This document shows, one piece after another, positions 35,728 to 40,831 of a stretch of DNA of 60,299 nt. The stretch comes from an uncultured virus (IMG/VR IMGVR_UViG_3300029305_001143) (taxonomy: Duplodnaviria > Heunggongvirae > Uroviricota > Caudoviricetes), in the IMG/VR virus record IMGVR_UViG_3300029305_001143; one strand, 5' to 3'. Numbering within the stretch: the first letter of the stretch is position 1; every line of letters starts with the position of its first letter. The translations under genes were made by a program, and so were the position numbers. Below the pieces are notes generated by a model. That model ran no database searches, had not been told where the DNA came from, and saw nothing but the letters and a program-made list of their open reading frames with translations.

Positions 35728-35818
35728 TGGCGGAGAGTGAGGGATTCGAACCCTCGCTACGATCACTCGTACTGTCTGCTTAGTAGGCAGATCCCTTCAA
35801 CCTCTTGGGTAACTCTCC
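35728..35818 (-). tRNA. tRNA-Ser(ACT)
   Basis: TCTGC-CTACTAA-GCAGA, long variable arm, G73, CCA. Confidence 0.88.
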
Positions 35819-36156: not shown

Positions 36157-36162
36157 ATAAAG

Positions 36163-36234
36163 CGAGGTAGGTTGGATTCGAACCAACGCATAAATACTTC
36201 ATCAGCACTTGCCTTACCTCTTGGCTACTACCTC
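36163..36234 (-). tRNA. Aberrant tRNA (nominal anticodon ATG, G33, no encoded CCA)
   Basis: Acceptor GAGGTAG/CTACCTC, D and T arms intact, loop TGATGAA. Confidence 0.55.
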
Positions 36235-36237
36235 ATA

Positions 36238-36312
36238 TGGAGCTACCGAGGAATTTCGAAATCCTGACCTGTGGATTACAAATCCACTGCTCTGCCTCTG
36301 AGCTACGGTAGC
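36238..36312 (-). tRNA. tRNA-Thr(TGT)
   Basis: GTGGA-TTTGTAA-TCCAC, CCA. Confidence 0.9.
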
Positions 36313-36833
36313 TTATTGAATCTTTTCTTCCACTTATAATTCTCAGTGAAAGAGTGACAATTAGGGCATAGAGCTTCTAGATTATCCAGTAGATTGTCCT
36401 CATGCTCTCCATTCTTATGGTGTAACTCTAAGTTAATCTTAGAACCTAGCCACTCAGTTAGTCCGCATCTTTCACACTTCCACTCTTTGATACCATAGAA
36501 TACTAAATACTCCAGGAGTCTATTACCTACATAATAGGTATGTCTTCCTTCGACAGTATCTACTAATCTCTCCCTACACTTCTCAGTATTGAGAGCTGTC
36601 ATATGCTCAGAGAAAGCTTTTCTTCTTTCATCTGTCCAGTAGCCTTCTGCAGAACAACCTGACCTACGCTTACCTGGAGGGTTGAGATTTTTCTTACCCT
36701 TCTCAACCTTTCTAGCTTTAGCTTCAGGAGATTGATTGAGAGCTACCCACTTATTAGAGCAACTTCTACAGCAGAATCTACCAGAGCCGAAAGTACCATC
36801 ATGTTCTTTACCACATTGTTCACAGATAGCCAT
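36303..36833 (-). CDS. HNH homing endonuclease
   Basis: CERCG..EW....LELHHKNG...DN..DNL..LCPNCHS; N-terminal C..CG...GRFC..SC module. Confidence 0.88.
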   Translation of the reverse strand: MAICEQCGKEHDGTFGSGRFCCRSCSNKWVALNQSPEAKARKVEKGKKNLNPPGKRRSGCSAEGYWTDERRKAFSEHMTALNTEKCRERLVDTVEGRHTYYVGNRLLEYLVFYGIKEWKCERCGLTEWLGSKINLELHHKNGEHEDNLLDNLEALCPNCHSFTENYKWKKRFNKLP

Positions 36834-36929: not shown

Positions 36930-37139
36930 TTATCTCTTAGGATTATACAATGTCTTATTCTGATTGTACTCTTTGTTGTAGCACTCAGTATGCAGGAACT
37001 TAGTCTTCTGCTTGAATGACTTCTTAGTTCCTTTAGATCCTTTGATAGTGATAGTCTCATAATTACCGTAGGTGATAGACTTACCACAGATCATGCATCT
37101 CTGGTGGTATGCTTTCTGAAGAGCAGAATCACAATACAT
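36930..37139 (-). CDS. Small zinc-binding hypothetical protein
   Basis: Start at MYCDS after GGAG; CMICG...HTEC. Confidence 0.6.
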   Translation of the reverse strand: MYCDSALQKAYHQRCMICGKSITYGNYETITIKGSKGTKKSFKQKTKFLHTECYNKEYNQNKTLYNPKR

Positions 37140-37157
37140 ACTATCATCTCCTAAGAG

Positions 37158-37233
37158 TGGTCCAAGTGGGGAGACTCGAACTCCCAGCTTCATGCTCCCA
37201 AAGCATGCCGTCTGCCAATTGACTTACACCTGG
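37158..37233 (-). tRNA. tRNA-Pro(TGG)
   Basis: CATGC-TTTGGGA-GCATG, C1-G72, A73, CCA. Confidence 0.9.
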
Positions 37234-37323
37234 ATGTTCCGTGGACTTATTGTCATCGCCACGGAGATAGTCTATCCTTTATGATAGACCACAACGCTTA
37301 CATTACTGTAACGTCCATTTTCA

Positions 37324-37372
37324 CATGATGTCCAGAGTCGAACTGGCTTGTATCTCCCACAAGTACATCATG
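37324..37372 (-). ncRNA. D-armless mini tRNA-like element
   Basis: CATGATGT/ACATCATG stem, CTTGT-N7-ACAAG, CCAG-TTCGACT-CTGG. Confidence 0.45.
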
Positions 37373-37473
37373 ATATGTAGAGTAAGATTATCGTACTTAC
37401 TCTAGTCATGTAACAGCTCTACCTACTACATGACACGATGGGCTAAGACCATAGGATGGTTGAGCATCCTGCT

Positions 37474-37550
37474 TGGACCAGACGATAGGACTCGAACCTA
37501 CTACCTTGTGCTCCCTATATCGGCACACGCTCTCCCAGAGCTACATCTGG
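37474..37550 (-). tRNA. tRNA-like RNA with an 11-nt anticodon loop (Pro-like)
   Basis: CCAGATG/CGTCTGG-TCCA; TGTGC-CGATATAGGGA-GCACA; canonical T arm. Confidence 0.6.
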
Positions 37551-37552
37551 AT

Positions 37553-37635
37553 AGGTGAGAGATAGAGGAGTCGAACCTCTGCAGACTACCTTAGTTAAGT
37601 GGAATCGAACCACACGCACACCACTGCATCTCTCA
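37553..37635 (-). ncRNA. tRNA-like RNA with two T-loop arms
   Basis: GAGAGAT/ATCTCTC stem; GTGG-TTCGATT-CCAC and AGAGG-TTCGACT-CCTCT. Confidence 0.5.
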
Positions 37636-37740
37636 TATGTAGGGAGCTCTCCACATCTTACGATGCTCACCTCGTCACAGAGCTCCCATGAGGCGATACA
37701 CAGACGAAAGGACAAAGGCGAAAAGCAAGAAACACCTTTG

Positions 37741-37827
37741 TGGTGCCGAGGATCGGACTCGAACCGACATGGTATCACTACCGAGAGATTTTAAGTCTCT
37801 TGTGTCTACCCATTCCACCACCTCGGC
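37741..37827 (-). tRNA. tRNA-Leu(TAA)
   Basis: AGAGA-CTTAAAA-TCTCT, CCA. Confidence 0.93.
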
Positions 37828-37830
37828 ATA

Positions 37831-37905
37831 TGGAGCAAGTGATGGGAGTCGAACCCACGCTTACTGCTTGGAAGGCAGTCGTACTAGCCGTTATACTACA
37901 CCTGC
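37831..37905 (-). tRNA. tRNA-Gly(TCC)
   Basis: ACTGC-CTTCCAA-GCAGT, U73, CCA. Confidence 0.93.
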
Positions 37906-37907
37906 AT

Positions 37908-38385
37908 ATGCGGGACAGTTCTTACCTCGATCAACTAGTTGCTCGCAGAGGGAGCGATGTATGGATGGGAGTTGATCTTATCCTGGAGATTAAGGACTCT
38001 GAACTGACAAGGGATGCACAATACTACCGCACGCAGAGTCAGCATTTACTCTACTTGAACACTATCGTAGTCCCCGACGTCCTCATAGCGATCATCAGAT
38101 TAATCCTCGTGGTAGCTAATCACGATTGATCCTTAATCACTAAGAGGATCTGAGCGTTAGATGAGCCATGCGCATCGTCTGGAGGAATCTCTCCTGCCTT
38201 TGACACTCATCTGTCGGAATCGTACCGACCCACCACAATCCGTACAGTATCGACTAGTACCCTGCGCACCCTAGCTCGTACTCGGCATCGGGAAGTACTA
38301 TCGCCCTCGGTGAATTATGAATCGAACCTCGCTGATTGTCACTTTGATACCGAGCTCGTCAGCTCTCGGGAGTTGACATCTCCCC
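37908..38385 (-). ncRNA. Candidate large structured ncRNA (~480 nt) between tRNA-Asn and tRNA-Gly
   Basis: No minus-strand ORF in the track, visibly GC-richer than coding regions, many local and long-range complementary segments. Confidence 0.55.
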
Positions 38386-38461
38386 TGGCTCCTGATGTAG
38401 GACTCGAACCTACGACCGATCGGTTAACAGCCGATTGCTCTACCTACTGAGCTAATCAGGA
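38386..38461 (-). tRNA. tRNA-Asn(GTT)
   Basis: ATCGG-CTGTTAA-CCGAT, CCA. Confidence 0.94.
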
Positions 38462-39188: not shown

Positions 39189-39977
39189 TTATACTCCGAA
39201 AATTTCTCTAATTTCATCTCCGTGCATCTTGACAATATCGATAACTGATCTCAAGATTCTACCTATCTGAGGTTGGGATTTACCATACTTCCTAGACAGA
39301 TCCAGTTGAGTAATATTCTCTCCTGCTAAGACTGAATACATCCATTCTTCTGCGATATCCCTATGGATAGGTTTGATATAGAGGAGGACTTTATCGATAG
39401 CTTGCTCAATCTCATCTTCATCCAGATGAGTATCAGGAGGTATGATAGATCTGTCAGGGATCATATCTCCTAAAGTGGTATCACTATCATCGCTCATTAG
39501 TCTATCCAGTGAATGAATCTCAGGCTCTGCGTAATCCATGATCTGAGCTCGAGAGAATTTACCTTCACTAACTAGCACATCAATCTCTTCATCAGATAGA
39601 GGGAGAGTGAATCCGTGACTAATCAAGGTGGATCTCATATCTTTGAACCATCTAGGAGTATGCAGAGCTTCACAGTCACGGAGACCTCTTAATATCTGAC
39701 CTTGTATCATAGGTACTGCATAGGTAGAGAATTCGAACCCTCTATCCTCATCGAAGCTCAGGCAGGATTTCCACAATCCTTCATAAGCCATTTGAAGAAT
39801 GTCTTCTTGATCGATTACTCCATCCCGTGATCCTACGAACTTACGAGCAATATGATTAGCTAGTCTGATATTATTACGAAATCTGATAGTAGCTTTTACT
39901 CTTGGGTCATCTTCATCATAAGACCTTGCACATAGTTCTTCATAGAGTAGTACCTGGTCTTCTTTGATATATTCCAT
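39189..39977 (-). CDS. SigB/SigF/SigG-type sigma factor
   Basis: NIRLANHIARKF, EDILQMAYEGLWK...FDEDRGFEFSTYAVPMIQGQILR.LRD, PR, SLD...TLGD.I, TQ.DLS...G.SQPQIGRI. Confidence 0.9.
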   Translation of the reverse strand: MEYIKEDQVLLYEELCARSYDEDDPRVKATIRFRNNIRLANHIARKFVGSRDGVIDQEDILQMAYEGLWKSCLSFDEDRGFEFSTYAVPMIQGQILRGLRDCEALHTPRWFKDMRSTLISHGFTLPLSDEEIDVLVSEGKFSRAQIMDYAEPEIHSLDRLMSDDSDTTLGDMIPDRSIIPPDTHLDEDEIEQAIDKVLLYIKPIHRDIAEEWMYSVLAGENITQLDLSRKYGKSQPQIGRILRSVIDIVKMHGDEIREIFGV

Positions 39978-40795
39978 TTATCCATCACCTGTTTCATAGG
40001 CAAGTTATCAGCATCCTGGAGGAATTCCTGACACTTATCTTGAGTCCATCTGATACGAGGAGTCTTAGCAGTGGCAGCATCCTCCTTAGTATCAGCAGGT
40101 ACATCCCAGACTCTCTTCTCTACCTTAGGAGTATCTTCTTCATCATACTCAGGACGGATATAGTAAGGTTTGATGATGGATGTTGTAGACTCATGCACTG
40201 CATAGTTATTATCTCCAGACTCTAAAGAGACCTCCATACGAGTAGTACTAAAACTCTTATCGAAGTCCTCCACTCTAGTAGCATCTGATGCGAGCATCTT
40301 AAGCTTCTCAGCGAAGTTCAGCACATCATCGTCAGTAAACTTAGGCTCCTCAGCTTTTGCTTGCATATGACCTACACTCTTAATAATAGCTTCCATGGAC
40401 TCATAGAGTTTGTTGAGAGTGATAGGAGAGTAATGCATTCCTAAGTGAATAGAAAGAGCAACATCAACTCTCTCCATGATATCATCAGAGAGCACTCCCA
40501 TGAACTCAAGGATATAAGCTCCAGAACTATAATCGAATGTGCGAATATTCTCACAGAGGATGACATTCTTAGTACCTCTATCATTCGTGAACACCACTTG
40601 AGCAGGAGTGCGGATATAGTCTCTAGTAGTGATAGGAGCAGCAGTGATCATACCAGAAGACTTATTGAACTTACCTACAGACAAGATTAGCCAAGGTCTA
40701 TCCTTCTGCTGCTCATGTCCTACGCACTCATTAGGATATTTGAATCTGATCATCCAGATTTGACCTCGTTCGAACTTCACGATATCATAAGACAT
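39896..40795 (-). CDS. PemK/MazF-family RNase domain with a long C-terminal extension (HTH-like end)
   Basis: ERGQIW......VGHEQQKDRPWLILS...N...ITAAPITT, ILCENIRT.D, VDVAL..HLG. Confidence 0.85.
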   Translation of the reverse strand: MSYDIVKFERGQIWMIRFKYPNECVGHEQQKDRPWLILSVGKFNKSSGMITAAPITTRDYIRTPAQVVFTNDRGTKNVILCENIRTFDYSSGAYILEFMGVLSDDIMERVDVALSIHLGMHYSPITLNKLYESMEAIIKSVGHMQAKAEEPKFTDDDVLNFAEKLKMLASDATRVEDFDKSFSTTRMEVSLESGDNNYAVHESTTSIIKPYYIRPEYDEEDTPKVEKRVWDVPADTKEDAATAKTPRIRWTQDKCQEFLQDADNLPMKQVMDKWNISKKTRYYSMKNYVQGLMMKMTQE

Positions 40796-40831
40796 AGAAA
40801 TATCTCCCATCTTCAGTTAATTTTCATATAC

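What the first reader, a model, noticed from the sequence alone, without database searches (positions are those of the whole stretch)
37908..38385. Candidate ~480-nt ornate ncRNA bracketed by two tRNAs
Seen: it starts right after the CCA of tRNA-Asn and ends just before tRNA-Gly, so tRNA processing would release it. Minus-strand helices include GGGAG/CTCCC, GAGCT-GACG-AGCTC, GTCGG-TACGATT-CCGAC (T-loop-like), AGATGAG/CTCATCT around two hairpins, GATCCT/AGGATC, TCGTG/CACGA, long-range CCCGATG/CGTCGGG, GACTCTG/CAGAGTC and GATCAACT/AGTTGATC, plus two TGCGCA palindromes. It lacks tmRNA and RNase P hallmarks. Known: GOLLD and ROOL are large RNAs found beside tRNAs in Bacillota phages, and GOLLD can embed tRNAs. 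Inference: a member of those classes or a new one, possibly extending into the hairpins at 37238-37740.
Basis: partly seen in the sequence, partly recalled or inferred. Interest (0 to 1): 0.75.

Follow-up and report, generated by a model that had tools for sequence, protein, structure and literature searches.

The report
Large structured phage RNA among tRNAs
The 480-base gap between two tRNA genes of this uncultured phage encodes a real, intricately folded non-coding RNA whose middle matches a little-studied catalogued family (RAGATH-36), and comparison with relatives shows that family to be two to three times larger than catalogued.

Summary
On the minus strand, 37906-38385 lies between tRNA-Asn and tRNA-Gly in a phage tRNA array and has no credible ORF. 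It is not GOLLD or ROOL. Its centre (38054-38232) matches Rfam RAGATH-36 (RF03104) over the full model at 59.5 bits, E 1.7e-11. That is below the curated cut-off of 70 because of two long insertions.

Comparison with about 65 viral contigs shows the 128-position Rfam model is only the middle of a larger RNA of at least 250 nt (about 425 nt here). The extra parts are a 5' conserved block closing a four-way junction and a 3' pseudoknotted domain.

A covariance model of that 3' domain, built without the window, hits the window once, at 37907-38057 (44.1 bits, E 7e-8). On 46 distinct sequences, 19 of 20 pairs show compensatory changes.

The 3' helix ends 3 nt before tRNA-Gly. In 13 related loci the same RNA sits directly after a ROOL RNA.

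Function is unknown. My best reading is a stable RNA cut out of the tRNA precursor by tRNA-processing enzymes and acting in trans. Verdict: a new variant of a known but uncharacterised family; interest is moderate to high.

The parts
37906..38385 (-). Whole inter-tRNA RNA candidate (480 nt). The family-conserved part is about 37909-38333 (425 nt).
   Evidence: Bracketing tRNAs. Rfam core. 3'-domain model. 5' domain architecture.
38386..38461 (-). tRNA-Asn(gtt), upstream neighbour. CCA is encoded at 38386-38388.
   Evidence: sequence read.
38334..38385 (-). Lineage-specific leader with two small hairpins (38368-38385 and 38352-38365). It is not conserved in the family.
   Evidence: Sequence; absent from the alignments; untested by covariation.
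38321..38333 (-). 5' conserved block: 5' strand of helix P1 (38330-38333) plus a junction with a T-loop-like sequence (38321-38329). It lies outside the Rfam model.
   Evidence: The 11-nt block, with at most one substitution, is found within 300 nt upstream in 66 of 92 sequences including the window. The architecture regex matched 54 of 54 distinct sequences.
38233..38320 (-). P2, a variable hairpin. Here it is a branched insert of about 89 nt closed by a 9-bp stem; in relatives it is 11-119 nt.
   Evidence: Closing stem checked by eye.
38213..38232 (-). 3-nt junction plus P3, a T-arm-like hairpin (5-bp stem, 7-nt loop). This is the start of the Rfam RAGATH-36 match.
   Evidence: 5 of 5 pairs in 54 of 54 distinct sequences, with 7 types of outer two pairs.
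38159..38212 (-). P4 hairpin, carrying a 40-nt insertion relative to the Rfam model.
38150..38158 (-). Conserved block holding the 3' strand of P1 (38153-38156), which closes the four-way junction P1-P4.
   Evidence: The P1 core never varies, so covariation can neither support nor refute it.
38079..38149 (-). P5 long stem with internal loops, carrying a 30-nt insertion relative to the Rfam model.
38055..38078 (-). Junction plus P6, a GNRA-tetraloop hairpin (38057-38073). The Rfam RAGATH-36 match ends at 38054.
38033..38054 (-). P7 hairpin (7 bp) with a conserved 8-nt loop (38040-38047). Loop bases 38042-38045 form pseudoknot PK1.
   Evidence: (helix 1: 7 of 7 pairs with two-sided changes, 95.6% paired).
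38027..38031 (-). Helix A, 5' strand. It pairs with 37909-37913.
   Evidence: helix 2: 6 of 6 pairs with two-sided changes, 90.2% paired.
38012..38019 (-). Conserved single strand. Bases 38014-38017 pair with the P7 loop (PK1).
   Evidence: 98.4% paired; 3 of 4 pairs changed on both sides in 11 of 46 rows (one clade).
38001..38006 (-). Helix B, 5' strand. It pairs with 37916-37921.
   Evidence: helix 3: 6 of 7 pairs with two-sided changes, 77.1% paired.
37929..37996 (-). Variable peripheral hairpins: a small hairpin at 37981-37996 and P10 at 37929-37977. They are treated as an insertion by the model.
37909..37928 (-). Conserved purine-rich junction (37922-37928), helix B' (37916-37921) and terminal helix A' (37909-37913).
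37906..37908 (-). 3-nt spacer between terminal helix A' and the first base of tRNA-Gly.
37831..37905 (-). tRNA-Gly(tcc), downstream neighbour. RNase P cleavage at its 5' end would create the 3' end of the RNA.
   Evidence: The cleavage is inferred, not shown.

Best explanation
The spacer encodes a stable structured non-coding RNA of about 425-480 nt. It is a long, insertion-rich member of the phage RNA family whose central third is catalogued as RAGATH-36.

The fold has two halves. The 5' half is a four-way junction (P1-P4). It carries a T-arm-like hairpin and a second T-loop-like sequence in a junction, followed by the long P5 stem and a GNRA hairpin. The 3' half is compact and pseudoknotted: a hairpin whose loop pairs with a conserved single strand, and two nested long-range helices (A and B) that bring the 3' end back to the core.

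It is transcribed with the tRNAs Arg-Met-Asn-[RNA]-Gly-Leu. It is released from the precursor by the host's tRNA-processing enzymes: RNase P at tRNA-Gly, 3 nt after the terminal helix, and 3' trimming of tRNA-Asn on the other side.

Once released, it most likely acts in trans during infection as a folded RNA that presents tRNA-like (T-loop) surfaces to a tRNA-binding partner.

Shown: the identity, the extent and the fold. Inferred: co-transcription and excision. Conjecture: the trans-acting tRNA-mimic or tRNA-docking role.
For: Identity:
- Full-length match to RF03104: 59.5 bits, E 1.7e-11 on the region and 2.2e-9 for the whole window against all families.
- All 20 related loci tested also match. 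8 are at or above the cut-off of 70 and 12 are below it. The architecture-closest locus, L038, scores 61.5.

Extent:
- The 5' block and three 3' blocks recur outside the Rfam model in relatives and in the window.
- Model R1 of the 3' domain was built from 23 loci without the window. It gives one hit in 60 kb, at 37907-38057, full length, 44.1 bits, E 7.3e-8.
- R1 hits 69 of 100 sources at E<=1e-3.

Fold:
- On 46 distinct rows, 87.5% of cells are paired against 65.2% in shuffles (0 of 500 shuffles as high).
- 19 of 20 pairs change on both sides. The covariation score is 0.615 against 0.223. Slid controls give 42-52% paired.
- The pseudoknot is 98.4% paired, with 3 of 4 pairs switched in one clade.
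- An alignment-free check gives cognate helices of 6.1 and 6.4 bp against 4.4 and 4.9 bp for non-cognate pairs.
- The 5' junction architecture is met in 54 of 54 distinct sequences.

Excision:
- In 11 of 69 hits a same-strand tRNA starts within -1 to +4 nt of the model end, with 7 different anticodons.
- 33 of 69 have a same-strand tRNA within about 1 kb. None has an opposite-strand tRNA.
- No terminator-like site lies on the minus strand between the two tRNAs. One lies just after tRNA-Leu, at 37747-37731.

Non-coding:
- No minus-strand ORF above 36 aa lies in the region, and no credible Pfam or PHROG match was found.
Against: - No transcript evidence. The only good holders are DNA runs with identical sequence at depth 4-6.
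- The Rfam score is below the curated cut-off.
- The fold energy of the single sequence is not unusual (z -1.40).
- Alignment A3 is fitted to the model, which favours the structure. Many of its rows are related, and the pseudoknot switch is essentially one clade-level event.
- P1 never varies, so it is unsupported by covariation.
- A tRNA-elbow-like contact between the junction and the T-arm-like loop is not supported. The third loop base changes in 4 loci (L032, L059, L069, L121) without any change in the junction block.
- In 36 of 69 hits no tRNA was detected within the flanks held (about 1 kb in most loci, about 0.3 kb in the shortest). In most of these the RNA sits between two ORFs, so tRNA-linked release cannot be the universal route.
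- A promoter-like match at 38342-38314 (minus strand) would start a transcript inside P2. It is a consensus match only.
Confidence: 0.6

Rival explanations
1. A cis-acting 5' element for whatever lies downstream. The RNA stays attached to, or acts on, the next unit (tRNA or ORF). It would serve as a processing signal, a block to 5'-to-3' exonuclease, or a regulator of ribosome or RNase P access.
For: - Its 3' terminal helix always abuts the next unit. The tRNA lies within 1-6 nt in 11 loci, or an ORF start with a Shine-Dalgarno-like sequence lies about 13-24 nt downstream in canonical loci.
- In 5 of 20 loci a twister-like ribozyme match lies upstream on the same strand. That would leave a 5'-OH end open to exonuclease (inference from recalled knowledge of RNase J).
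- The pyrimidine-rich 3' strands could pair with the downstream Shine-Dalgarno sequence in some loci (by eye).
Against: - Simple stabilisers or occluders do not need 250-430 nt with many invariant junction bases.
- Downstream units are unrelated to one another: 7 tRNA anticodons, a lipoprotein-like ORF, a 42-aa ORF and others, none with a Pfam or PHROG family.
- The proposed Shine-Dalgarno pairing is absent in at least one locus (L053) and impossible before tRNAs.
- In ROOL-adjacent loci the next tRNA-like gene is 86-295 nt away.
Confidence: 0.2
2. A ribozyme or other catalytic or ligand-sensing RNA, for example one that cleaves itself or acts on tRNA. Its activity would have been missed because the catalogued motif is only a fragment.
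For: - It has a complex pseudoknotted core with near-invariant unpaired bases and freely variable peripheral hairpins.
- It shares genomic neighbourhoods with twister-like ribozyme matches.
- There is a precedent for a RAGATH motif being a piece of a larger functional RNA. The Rfam RAGATH-18 model corresponds to nucleotides 51-123 of the guide RNA chain in a solved TnpB complex (passages of PMC13085918; abstract of PMC11061315).
Against: - No match to any known ribozyme or riboswitch family.
- No conserved cleavage-site signature could be identified.
- No consistent regulated gene class lies downstream.
- Nothing here tests activity.
Confidence: 0.12
3. A member of ROOL or GOLLD, or a 3' extension of such an RNA.
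For: - The context is the same (phage tRNA arrays).
- In 13 of 14 loci of one clade the family lies 15-20 nt after a ROOL RNA.
Against: - No ROOL or GOLLD match in the region at E<=10 or in the window at E<=0.05.
- The family occurs without ROOL in most loci: 56 of 69 hits, including the window. Only 40 loci were scanned with Rfam.
Confidence: 0.02
4. Decayed tRNA genes or non-functional spacer, or a small protein-coding gene.
For: - T-arm-like sequences are present.
- The neighbouring gap 37234-37740 does hold degenerate tRNA-like elements.
- Short ORFs of 32-46 aa exist.
Against: - Compensatory changes in 19 of 20 tested pairs and conservation across divergent phages.
- ARAGORN and the Rfam tRNA model find no tRNA inside the region.
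- The ORFs have no family support beyond one weak match to a family of unknown function on the strand antisense to tRNA-Asn.
Confidence: 0.03

Closest known systems
RAGATH-36 RNA (Rfam RF03104)
   Same: The window matches all 128 model positions, with the T-arm-like first hairpin, the conserved single-stranded block, the long third stem and the GNRA hairpin. Canonical members in viral contigs share the same 5' and 3' flanking blocks as the window.
   Different: - The score is 59.5, below the cut-off of 70, because of 40-nt and 30-nt insertions.
- The window copy sits in a tRNA array, not between ORFs, and no twister or hammerhead match is in the 60-kb window.
- The family as I reconstruct it is 250-430 nt, with a closing helix, a four-way junction and a pseudoknotted 3' domain that the Rfam model does not contain.
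- I found no paper that mentions RAGATH-36 (0 papers). The 2017 paper on 224 candidate RNAs has 0 occurrences of 'RAGATH' in its main text. I could not see the original description or its supplements.
ROOL and GOLLD large phage RNAs
   Same: Large, ornate, function-unknown RNAs of phages and prophages that lie near or within tRNA arrays (passages of PMC5737381, PMC12990946 and the Kretsch preprint). This family is a direct neighbour of ROOL in 13 loci.
   Different: There is no sequence or structure match. It is smaller. Nothing is known here about multimer formation.
Stable non-tRNA RNAs of the phage T4 tRNA cluster (species 1 and 2; recalled, no call)
   Same: Small stable RNAs encoded among phage tRNA genes, co-transcribed with them and cut out by tRNA-processing enzymes, with no assigned function. 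This is the closest analogue for how I think the window RNA is made.
   Different: No sequence relation was tested. The T4 RNAs are much shorter. This comparison rests on memory only.
tRNA and tRNA-like structures (T-arm; double T-loop modules that dock tRNA elbows)
   Same: P3 has the 5-bp stem and 7-nt loop geometry of a T-arm, and the junction before P2 carries a canonical T-loop-like sequence. A double T-loop stacking on the tRNA elbow is described for T-box Stem I in passages of PMC12990946.
   Different: It is not a tRNA by ARAGORN or the Rfam tRNA model. There is no anticodon arm or acceptor end. The one testable elbow-like contact showed no covariation.

Membership tests
RAGATH-36 (RF03104) | Score at or above Rfam's curated gathering threshold (70 bits) | tested here: not met
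   59.5 bits. 12 of the 20 related loci tested are also below 70, among them 4 of the 5 tested loci whose copy directly abuts a tRNA.
RAGATH-36 (RF03104) | Statistically significant, full-length alignment to the covariance model | tested here: met
   Model positions 1-128 of 128. E 1.7e-11 on the region and 2.2e-9 for the whole window against 4227 families.
RAGATH-36 (RF03104) | Conserved hairpins and single-stranded blocks of the consensus: T-arm-like hairpin, conserved linker block, GNRA hairpin with its 3' trinucleotide | tested here: met
   The alignment shows the upper-case consensus positions matched, with posterior probability mostly at the maximum.
RAGATH-36 (RF03104) | Shares the family's flanking sequence outside the Rfam model (my own criterion, derived here) | tested here: met
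   3' domain: model R1, built without the window, gives 44.1 bits, E 7.3e-8, as the single hit. 5' block and junction architecture.
RAGATH-36 (RF03104) | Neighbourhood of twister or hammerhead ribozymes (origin of the name, as expanded in passages of PMC13346280) | tested here: not met
   No twister or hammerhead match at E<=0.05 in the 60-kb window. Twister-like matches lie upstream in 5 of 20 related loci.
ROOL (RF03087) | Match to the ROOL covariance model | tested here: not met
   None at E<=10 in 37906-38385 or at E<=0.05 in the window. The positive control works: 280-314 bits in 13 loci.
GOLLD | Match to the Rfam GOLLD covariance model | tested here: not met
   No match.
tmRNA / RNase P RNA | Detection by ARAGORN (tmRNA) or by Rfam models | tested here: not met
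tRNA | Cloverleaf detected by ARAGORN or the Rfam tRNA model | tested here: not met
   No tRNA inside 37906-38385. Only a T-arm-like hairpin is present.

The most novel reading that the evidence does not exclude
The enlarged RAGATH-36 family is a new class of large functional phage RNA. It would use paired T-loop modules and a pseudoknotted core to dock or act on tRNAs or pre-tRNAs. Possible actions are controlling their maturation, shielding phage tRNAs from host tRNA-targeting defences, or catalysing a step itself. It would work together with ROOL nanocages in the phages where the two genes are adjacent. Earlier tests, if any, would have used only the catalogued fragment and so missed the activity.
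Probability: 0.12. Interest if true: 0.85.

Novelty: new variant of a known kind. Interest (0 to 1): 0.6.

Why it matters
Phage tRNA arrays carry several large RNAs (GOLLD, ROOL) whose functions are still unknown, according to the 2024-2026 texts I read in part. This work adds three things.

- It adds a third such RNA to that set.
- It shows that a catalogued motif is only the centre of a pseudoknotted RNA of 250-430 nt. The curated threshold misses every copy tested that lies next to tRNAs or ROOL, apart from two (L055, L075).
- It reveals a conserved gene order, ROOL then this RNA then tRNAs, that links the families.

This gives experimenters full-length constructs for self-cleavage assays, probing, cryo-EM and pull-downs, and it gives database curators a reason to rebuild the model.

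RAGATH-18 is a precedent. Its Rfam motif proved to be part of a guide RNA for TnpB nucleases.

Tried and rejected
Classes and coding readings rejected:
- GOLLD, ROOL, tmRNA and RNase P: no matches.
- Protein-coding reading: the ORFs have no family support. The 129-aa plus-strand ORF runs antisense through two tRNA genes.
- Extension into 37238-37740: rejected.

Searches that found nothing:
- Cultured-phage relatives: blastn of the region, of 15 kb around it, and of a canonical family member found only tRNA matches or nothing.
- Relatives of the phage through its sigma-factor gene: none.
- Flanking ORFs of related loci have no Pfam or PHROG family. One search failed on wrong coordinates, which I corrected.

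Expression:
- The best holders are 3 DNA runs from animal feces metagenomes with identical sequence.
- One RNA-library run (X20) held only small parts. One of its contigs skips two of the window's variable hairpins, so it comes from a relative.
- This is not evidence of transcription.

Ideas dropped:
- Single-sequence folding energy as evidence: z -1.40, not significant.
- My first idea that a conserved three-base 'start codon' precedes the tRNA. Its last base is the first base of the tRNA, an off-by-one in my slicing that one search corrected.
The distance is 86-295 nt.
- An elbow-like junction-to-loop base pair: no covariation.
- Sequestration of the Shine-Dalgarno sequence by the 3' strand: inconsistent between loci (by eye).
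- A guide-RNA reading like RAGATH-18: no nuclease gene is adjacent in the window or in the flanks I hold.

Steps not completed:
- RNAalifold on the raw MAFFT alignment recovered only P7, because helix registers differ. A covariance model was needed.
- A script that would have located the elements by typed pieces was not run. The coordinates were read from the ruler and may be off by one.
- Further pattern scans for window-like relatives were left out. The leader hairpins and the P2 insert therefore remain untested by comparison.

Full report
Setting.
The window is part of an uncultured large phage. All large ORFs lie on the minus strand. They include portal, terminase, anaerobic ribonucleotide reductase, a sigma factor, SbcC-like, UvsX-like, NAD-ligase and DNA polymerase genes. 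No cultured phage is close: only tRNA-sized matches were found. ARAGORN and Rfam find 15 tRNA genes on the minus strand between 35133 and 38675. The finding is the 480-nt gap between tRNA-Asn (38386-38461, CCA encoded) and tRNA-Gly (37831-37905).

What the region matches.
At Rfam's curated thresholds only tRNAs are reported. With E-value reporting, one family stands out. RAGATH-36 (RF03104) matches 38054-38232 on the minus strand over all 128 model positions, at 59.5 bits against a cut-off of 70. The E-value is 1.7e-11 for the region and 2.2e-9 for the whole window. The shortfall comes from a 40-nt insertion in the second hairpin and a 30-nt insertion in the third stem. There is no GOLLD, ROOL, RNase P or tmRNA signal. 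The ORFs in the region are short or antisense to tRNAs and have no family support.

Relatives.
- A degenerate pattern for the first hairpin found 91 stretches in viral contigs.
- Of these 91 loci plus the window (92 sequences), 66 carry a conserved 11-nt block within 300 nt upstream of the hairpin, with at most one substitution. They form 54 distinct sequences. The other 26 look like chance matches or remote variants and were not used.
- Rfam on 20 of these loci gave a RAGATH-36 match in all 20. 8 were at or above 70 bits (up to 151.2) and 12 were below. Among those below is L038 (61.5 bits), whose layout between two tRNAs is closest to the window.
- 5 of the 20 loci had a twister-like match upstream on the same strand.
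- A scan of one genome per prokaryote species gave 104 pattern matches, but only 8 passed a motif filter. 5 of those 8 were confirmed by my model. They are metagenome-assembled genomes labelled Ruminococcus, Oscillospiraceae (two), Clostridiales and Prevotella.
- The DNA runs that hold the window's sequence are animal feces metagenomes.

The family is larger than its Rfam model.
Alignments show conserved blocks on both sides of the 128-position core, in canonical members and in the window alike.
- 5' side. An invariant short strand pairs with the conserved block that follows the second hairpin. This closes a four-way junction: P1, a variable hairpin P2, the T-arm-like P3, and P4. The architecture is met in 54 of 54 distinct sequences. 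P3 is fully paired in all of them, with seven types of outer pairs. P2 ranges from 11 to 119 nt and is 89 nt in the window, closed by 9 pairs. The core of P1 never varies, so it is plausible but unproven.
- 3' side. After the GNRA hairpin come a 7-bp hairpin P7 with a conserved 8-nt loop and then the 5' strand of helix A. Next are a conserved single strand, the 5' strand of helix B and a conserved purine junction. One or more variable hairpins follow, then a second purine-rich junction, and finally the 3' strands of B and A, which end the RNA.

Formal tests of the 3' domain.
- RNAalifold on a raw MAFFT alignment recovered only P7, because the registers differ.
- I therefore built covariance model R1 (121 positions, 20 pairs) from 23 loci, leaving out the window and L038.
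- R1 finds exactly one match in the 60-kb window, at 37907-38057(-). It is full length, at 44.1 bits and E 7.3e-8, and nothing else appears up to E 10.
- Over 100 sources R1 finds 69 matches at E<=1e-3.
- On the resulting alignment (46 distinct rows), 87.5% of cells are standard pairs against 65.2% after shuffling (0 of 500 shuffles as high). 19 of 20 pairs show changes on both sides. The covariation score is 0.615 against 0.223. Sliding the partners by 1-3 columns drops pairing to 42-52%.
- The alignment is fitted to the model, which favours the structure. An alignment-free check agrees: each sequence's own strands form longer helices than strands swapped between sequences, 6.1 against 4.4 bp for A and 6.4 against 4.9 bp for B across 29 sequences. 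By eye there are about 11 different A helices and 13 different B helices.
- Four bases of the P7 loop pair with four bases of the conserved single strand. They are 98.4% paired, and three of the four pairs are switched together in the 11 rows of one clade. A second, different switch is visible by eye in L025 and L087, which are not in that alignment.

Map in the window.
Coordinates were read and may be off by one.

| Element | Coordinates (minus strand) |
|---|---|
| Leader hairpins | 38368-38385 and 38352-38365 |
| P1 | 38330-38333 with 38153-38156 |
| Junction | 38321-38329 |
| P2 | 38233-38320 |
| P3 | 38213-38229 |
| P4 | 38159-38212 |
| P5 | 38079-38149 |
| P6 | 38057-38073 |
| P7 | 38033-38054 |
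| Helix A | 38027-38031 with 37909-37913 |
| Pseudoknot | 38042-38045 with 38014-38017 |
| Helix B | 38001-38006 with 37916-37921 |
| Variable hairpins | 37981-37996 and 37929-37977 |
| Spacer before tRNA-Gly | 37906-37908 |

The conserved RNA is thus about 425 nt. The first ~50 nt after tRNA-Asn are specific to this lineage and untested.

Context and likely biogenesis.
- Among the 69 matches, a same-strand tRNA starts within -1 to +4 nt of the model end in 11. These are Gly-tcc four times including the window, Glu twice, and Lys, Met, Ile, Gln and Leu-taa once each.
- 33 of the 69 have a same-strand tRNA within about 1 kb, and none has an opposite-strand tRNA.
- No terminator-like site lies between the flanking tRNAs on the minus strand. 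One lies right after tRNA-Leu. The likely unit is therefore Arg-Met-Asn-RNA-Gly-Leu.
- RNase P cleavage at tRNA-Gly would leave the RNA ending 3 nt after its terminal helix. This step is inferred from established tRNA processing and is not shown.
- In the canonical clade the RNA lies between two ORFs. A conserved 38-aa ORF is open in 19 of 19 variants, with variability highest at third codon positions (0.354, against 0.232 and 0.132). Its stop codon falls in the loop of P2. A downstream ORF starts about 13-24 nt after the terminal helix.
- In a third clade the RNA follows a ROOL RNA by 15-20 nt in 13 of 14 loci. The 14th locus is too short to tell.

Function.
Nothing here measures function. 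I found no paper that mentions RAGATH-36, and the texts I read in part say ROOL and GOLLD remain without known function.

The anatomy resembles that of RNAs that fold into a specific three-dimensional body: invariant junction bases, a pseudoknot, a GNRA loop, two T-loop-like elements and freely variable peripheral hairpins.

I commit, at about 35-40% for this step, to a stable RNA excised from the tRNA precursor that acts in trans and presents tRNA-like surfaces to a tRNA-binding partner. The main rival is a cis-acting element serving the downstream unit (about 20%), followed by a ribozyme or sensor whose activity needs the full length (about 12%). One specific idea failed its only available test: a base pair between the junction and the T-arm-like loop, as in a tRNA elbow, showed no covariation.

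Verdict.
It is wrong on class, since the RNA is neither ROOL nor GOLLD nor wholly new, and on the proposed extension into the next gap. The new points are the long tRNA-array variant, the enlarged architecture of the family and its adjacency to ROOL.

Noticed in passing
window 37234-37740 (minus strand): The next inter-tRNA gap holds three atypical tRNA-like elements. One at about 37474-37550 scores 44.6 bits on the Rfam tRNA model with an 11-nt anticodon loop, and standard ARAGORN and the gathering-threshold scan both missed it. One is at about 37554-37634, with a weak tRNA-Sec-like match. One is at about 37322-37436, with a 25-nt insertion in the anticodon loop.
   Followed up: partly
L005, L011, L014, L015, L036, L043, L048, L057, L063, L066, L068, L076, L079 (each about 370-1320 in the oriented locus): Conserved gene order in one phage clade: a ROOL RNA (280-314 bits), then 15-20 nt later a variant of this RNA family, then a tRNA array that begins with an odd 86-88-nt tRNA-like gene 86-295 nt further on.
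   Followed up: partly
L001, L003, L004, L008, L012, L019, L030, L037, L044, L047, L049, L051, L067, L083, L085, L090, L126, L128, L156 (about 95 nt upstream of the RNA to about 20 nt inside it): A conserved ORF of about 38 aa overlaps the 5' end of the RNA, and its stop codon lies in the tetraloop of P2. The frame is open in 19 of 19 variants, and third codon positions vary most. It has no Pfam or PHROG family.
   Followed up: partly
L021 about 860-900 (oriented), upstream of its full copy: A fragment resembling only the helix-B part of the 3' domain lies between tRNA-Leu and the full RNA copy. This suggests a partial duplication or a recombination scar.
   Followed up: no
window 36162-36234 and 35728-35818 (minus strand): Two phage tRNAs are called with A at the first anticodon position, His(atg) and Ser(act). 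This is unusual for bacterial-type tRNAs.
   Followed up: no
window 36303-36833 (minus strand): An HNH endonuclease gene (PHROG E 7e-19) sits inside the tRNA array. An 87-aa cysteine-rich ORF follows it at 36930-37193.
   Followed up: no
window 39896-40810 (minus strand): A 304-aa ORF has an N-terminal MazF-like domain (PHROG 1936, E 7e-21). It overlaps the end of the sigma-factor gene.
   Followed up: no
L022 and L053, about 20-50 nt upstream of the RNA: A shared hairpin with a conserved purine-rich loop precedes the RNA in two otherwise different loci. It may be another small RNA motif.
   Followed up: no
window 37731-37747 (minus strand): A terminator-like hairpin plus T-run uses the 3' end of tRNA-Leu as part of its stem. 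It may mark the end of the tRNA-RNA transcription unit.
   Followed up: no
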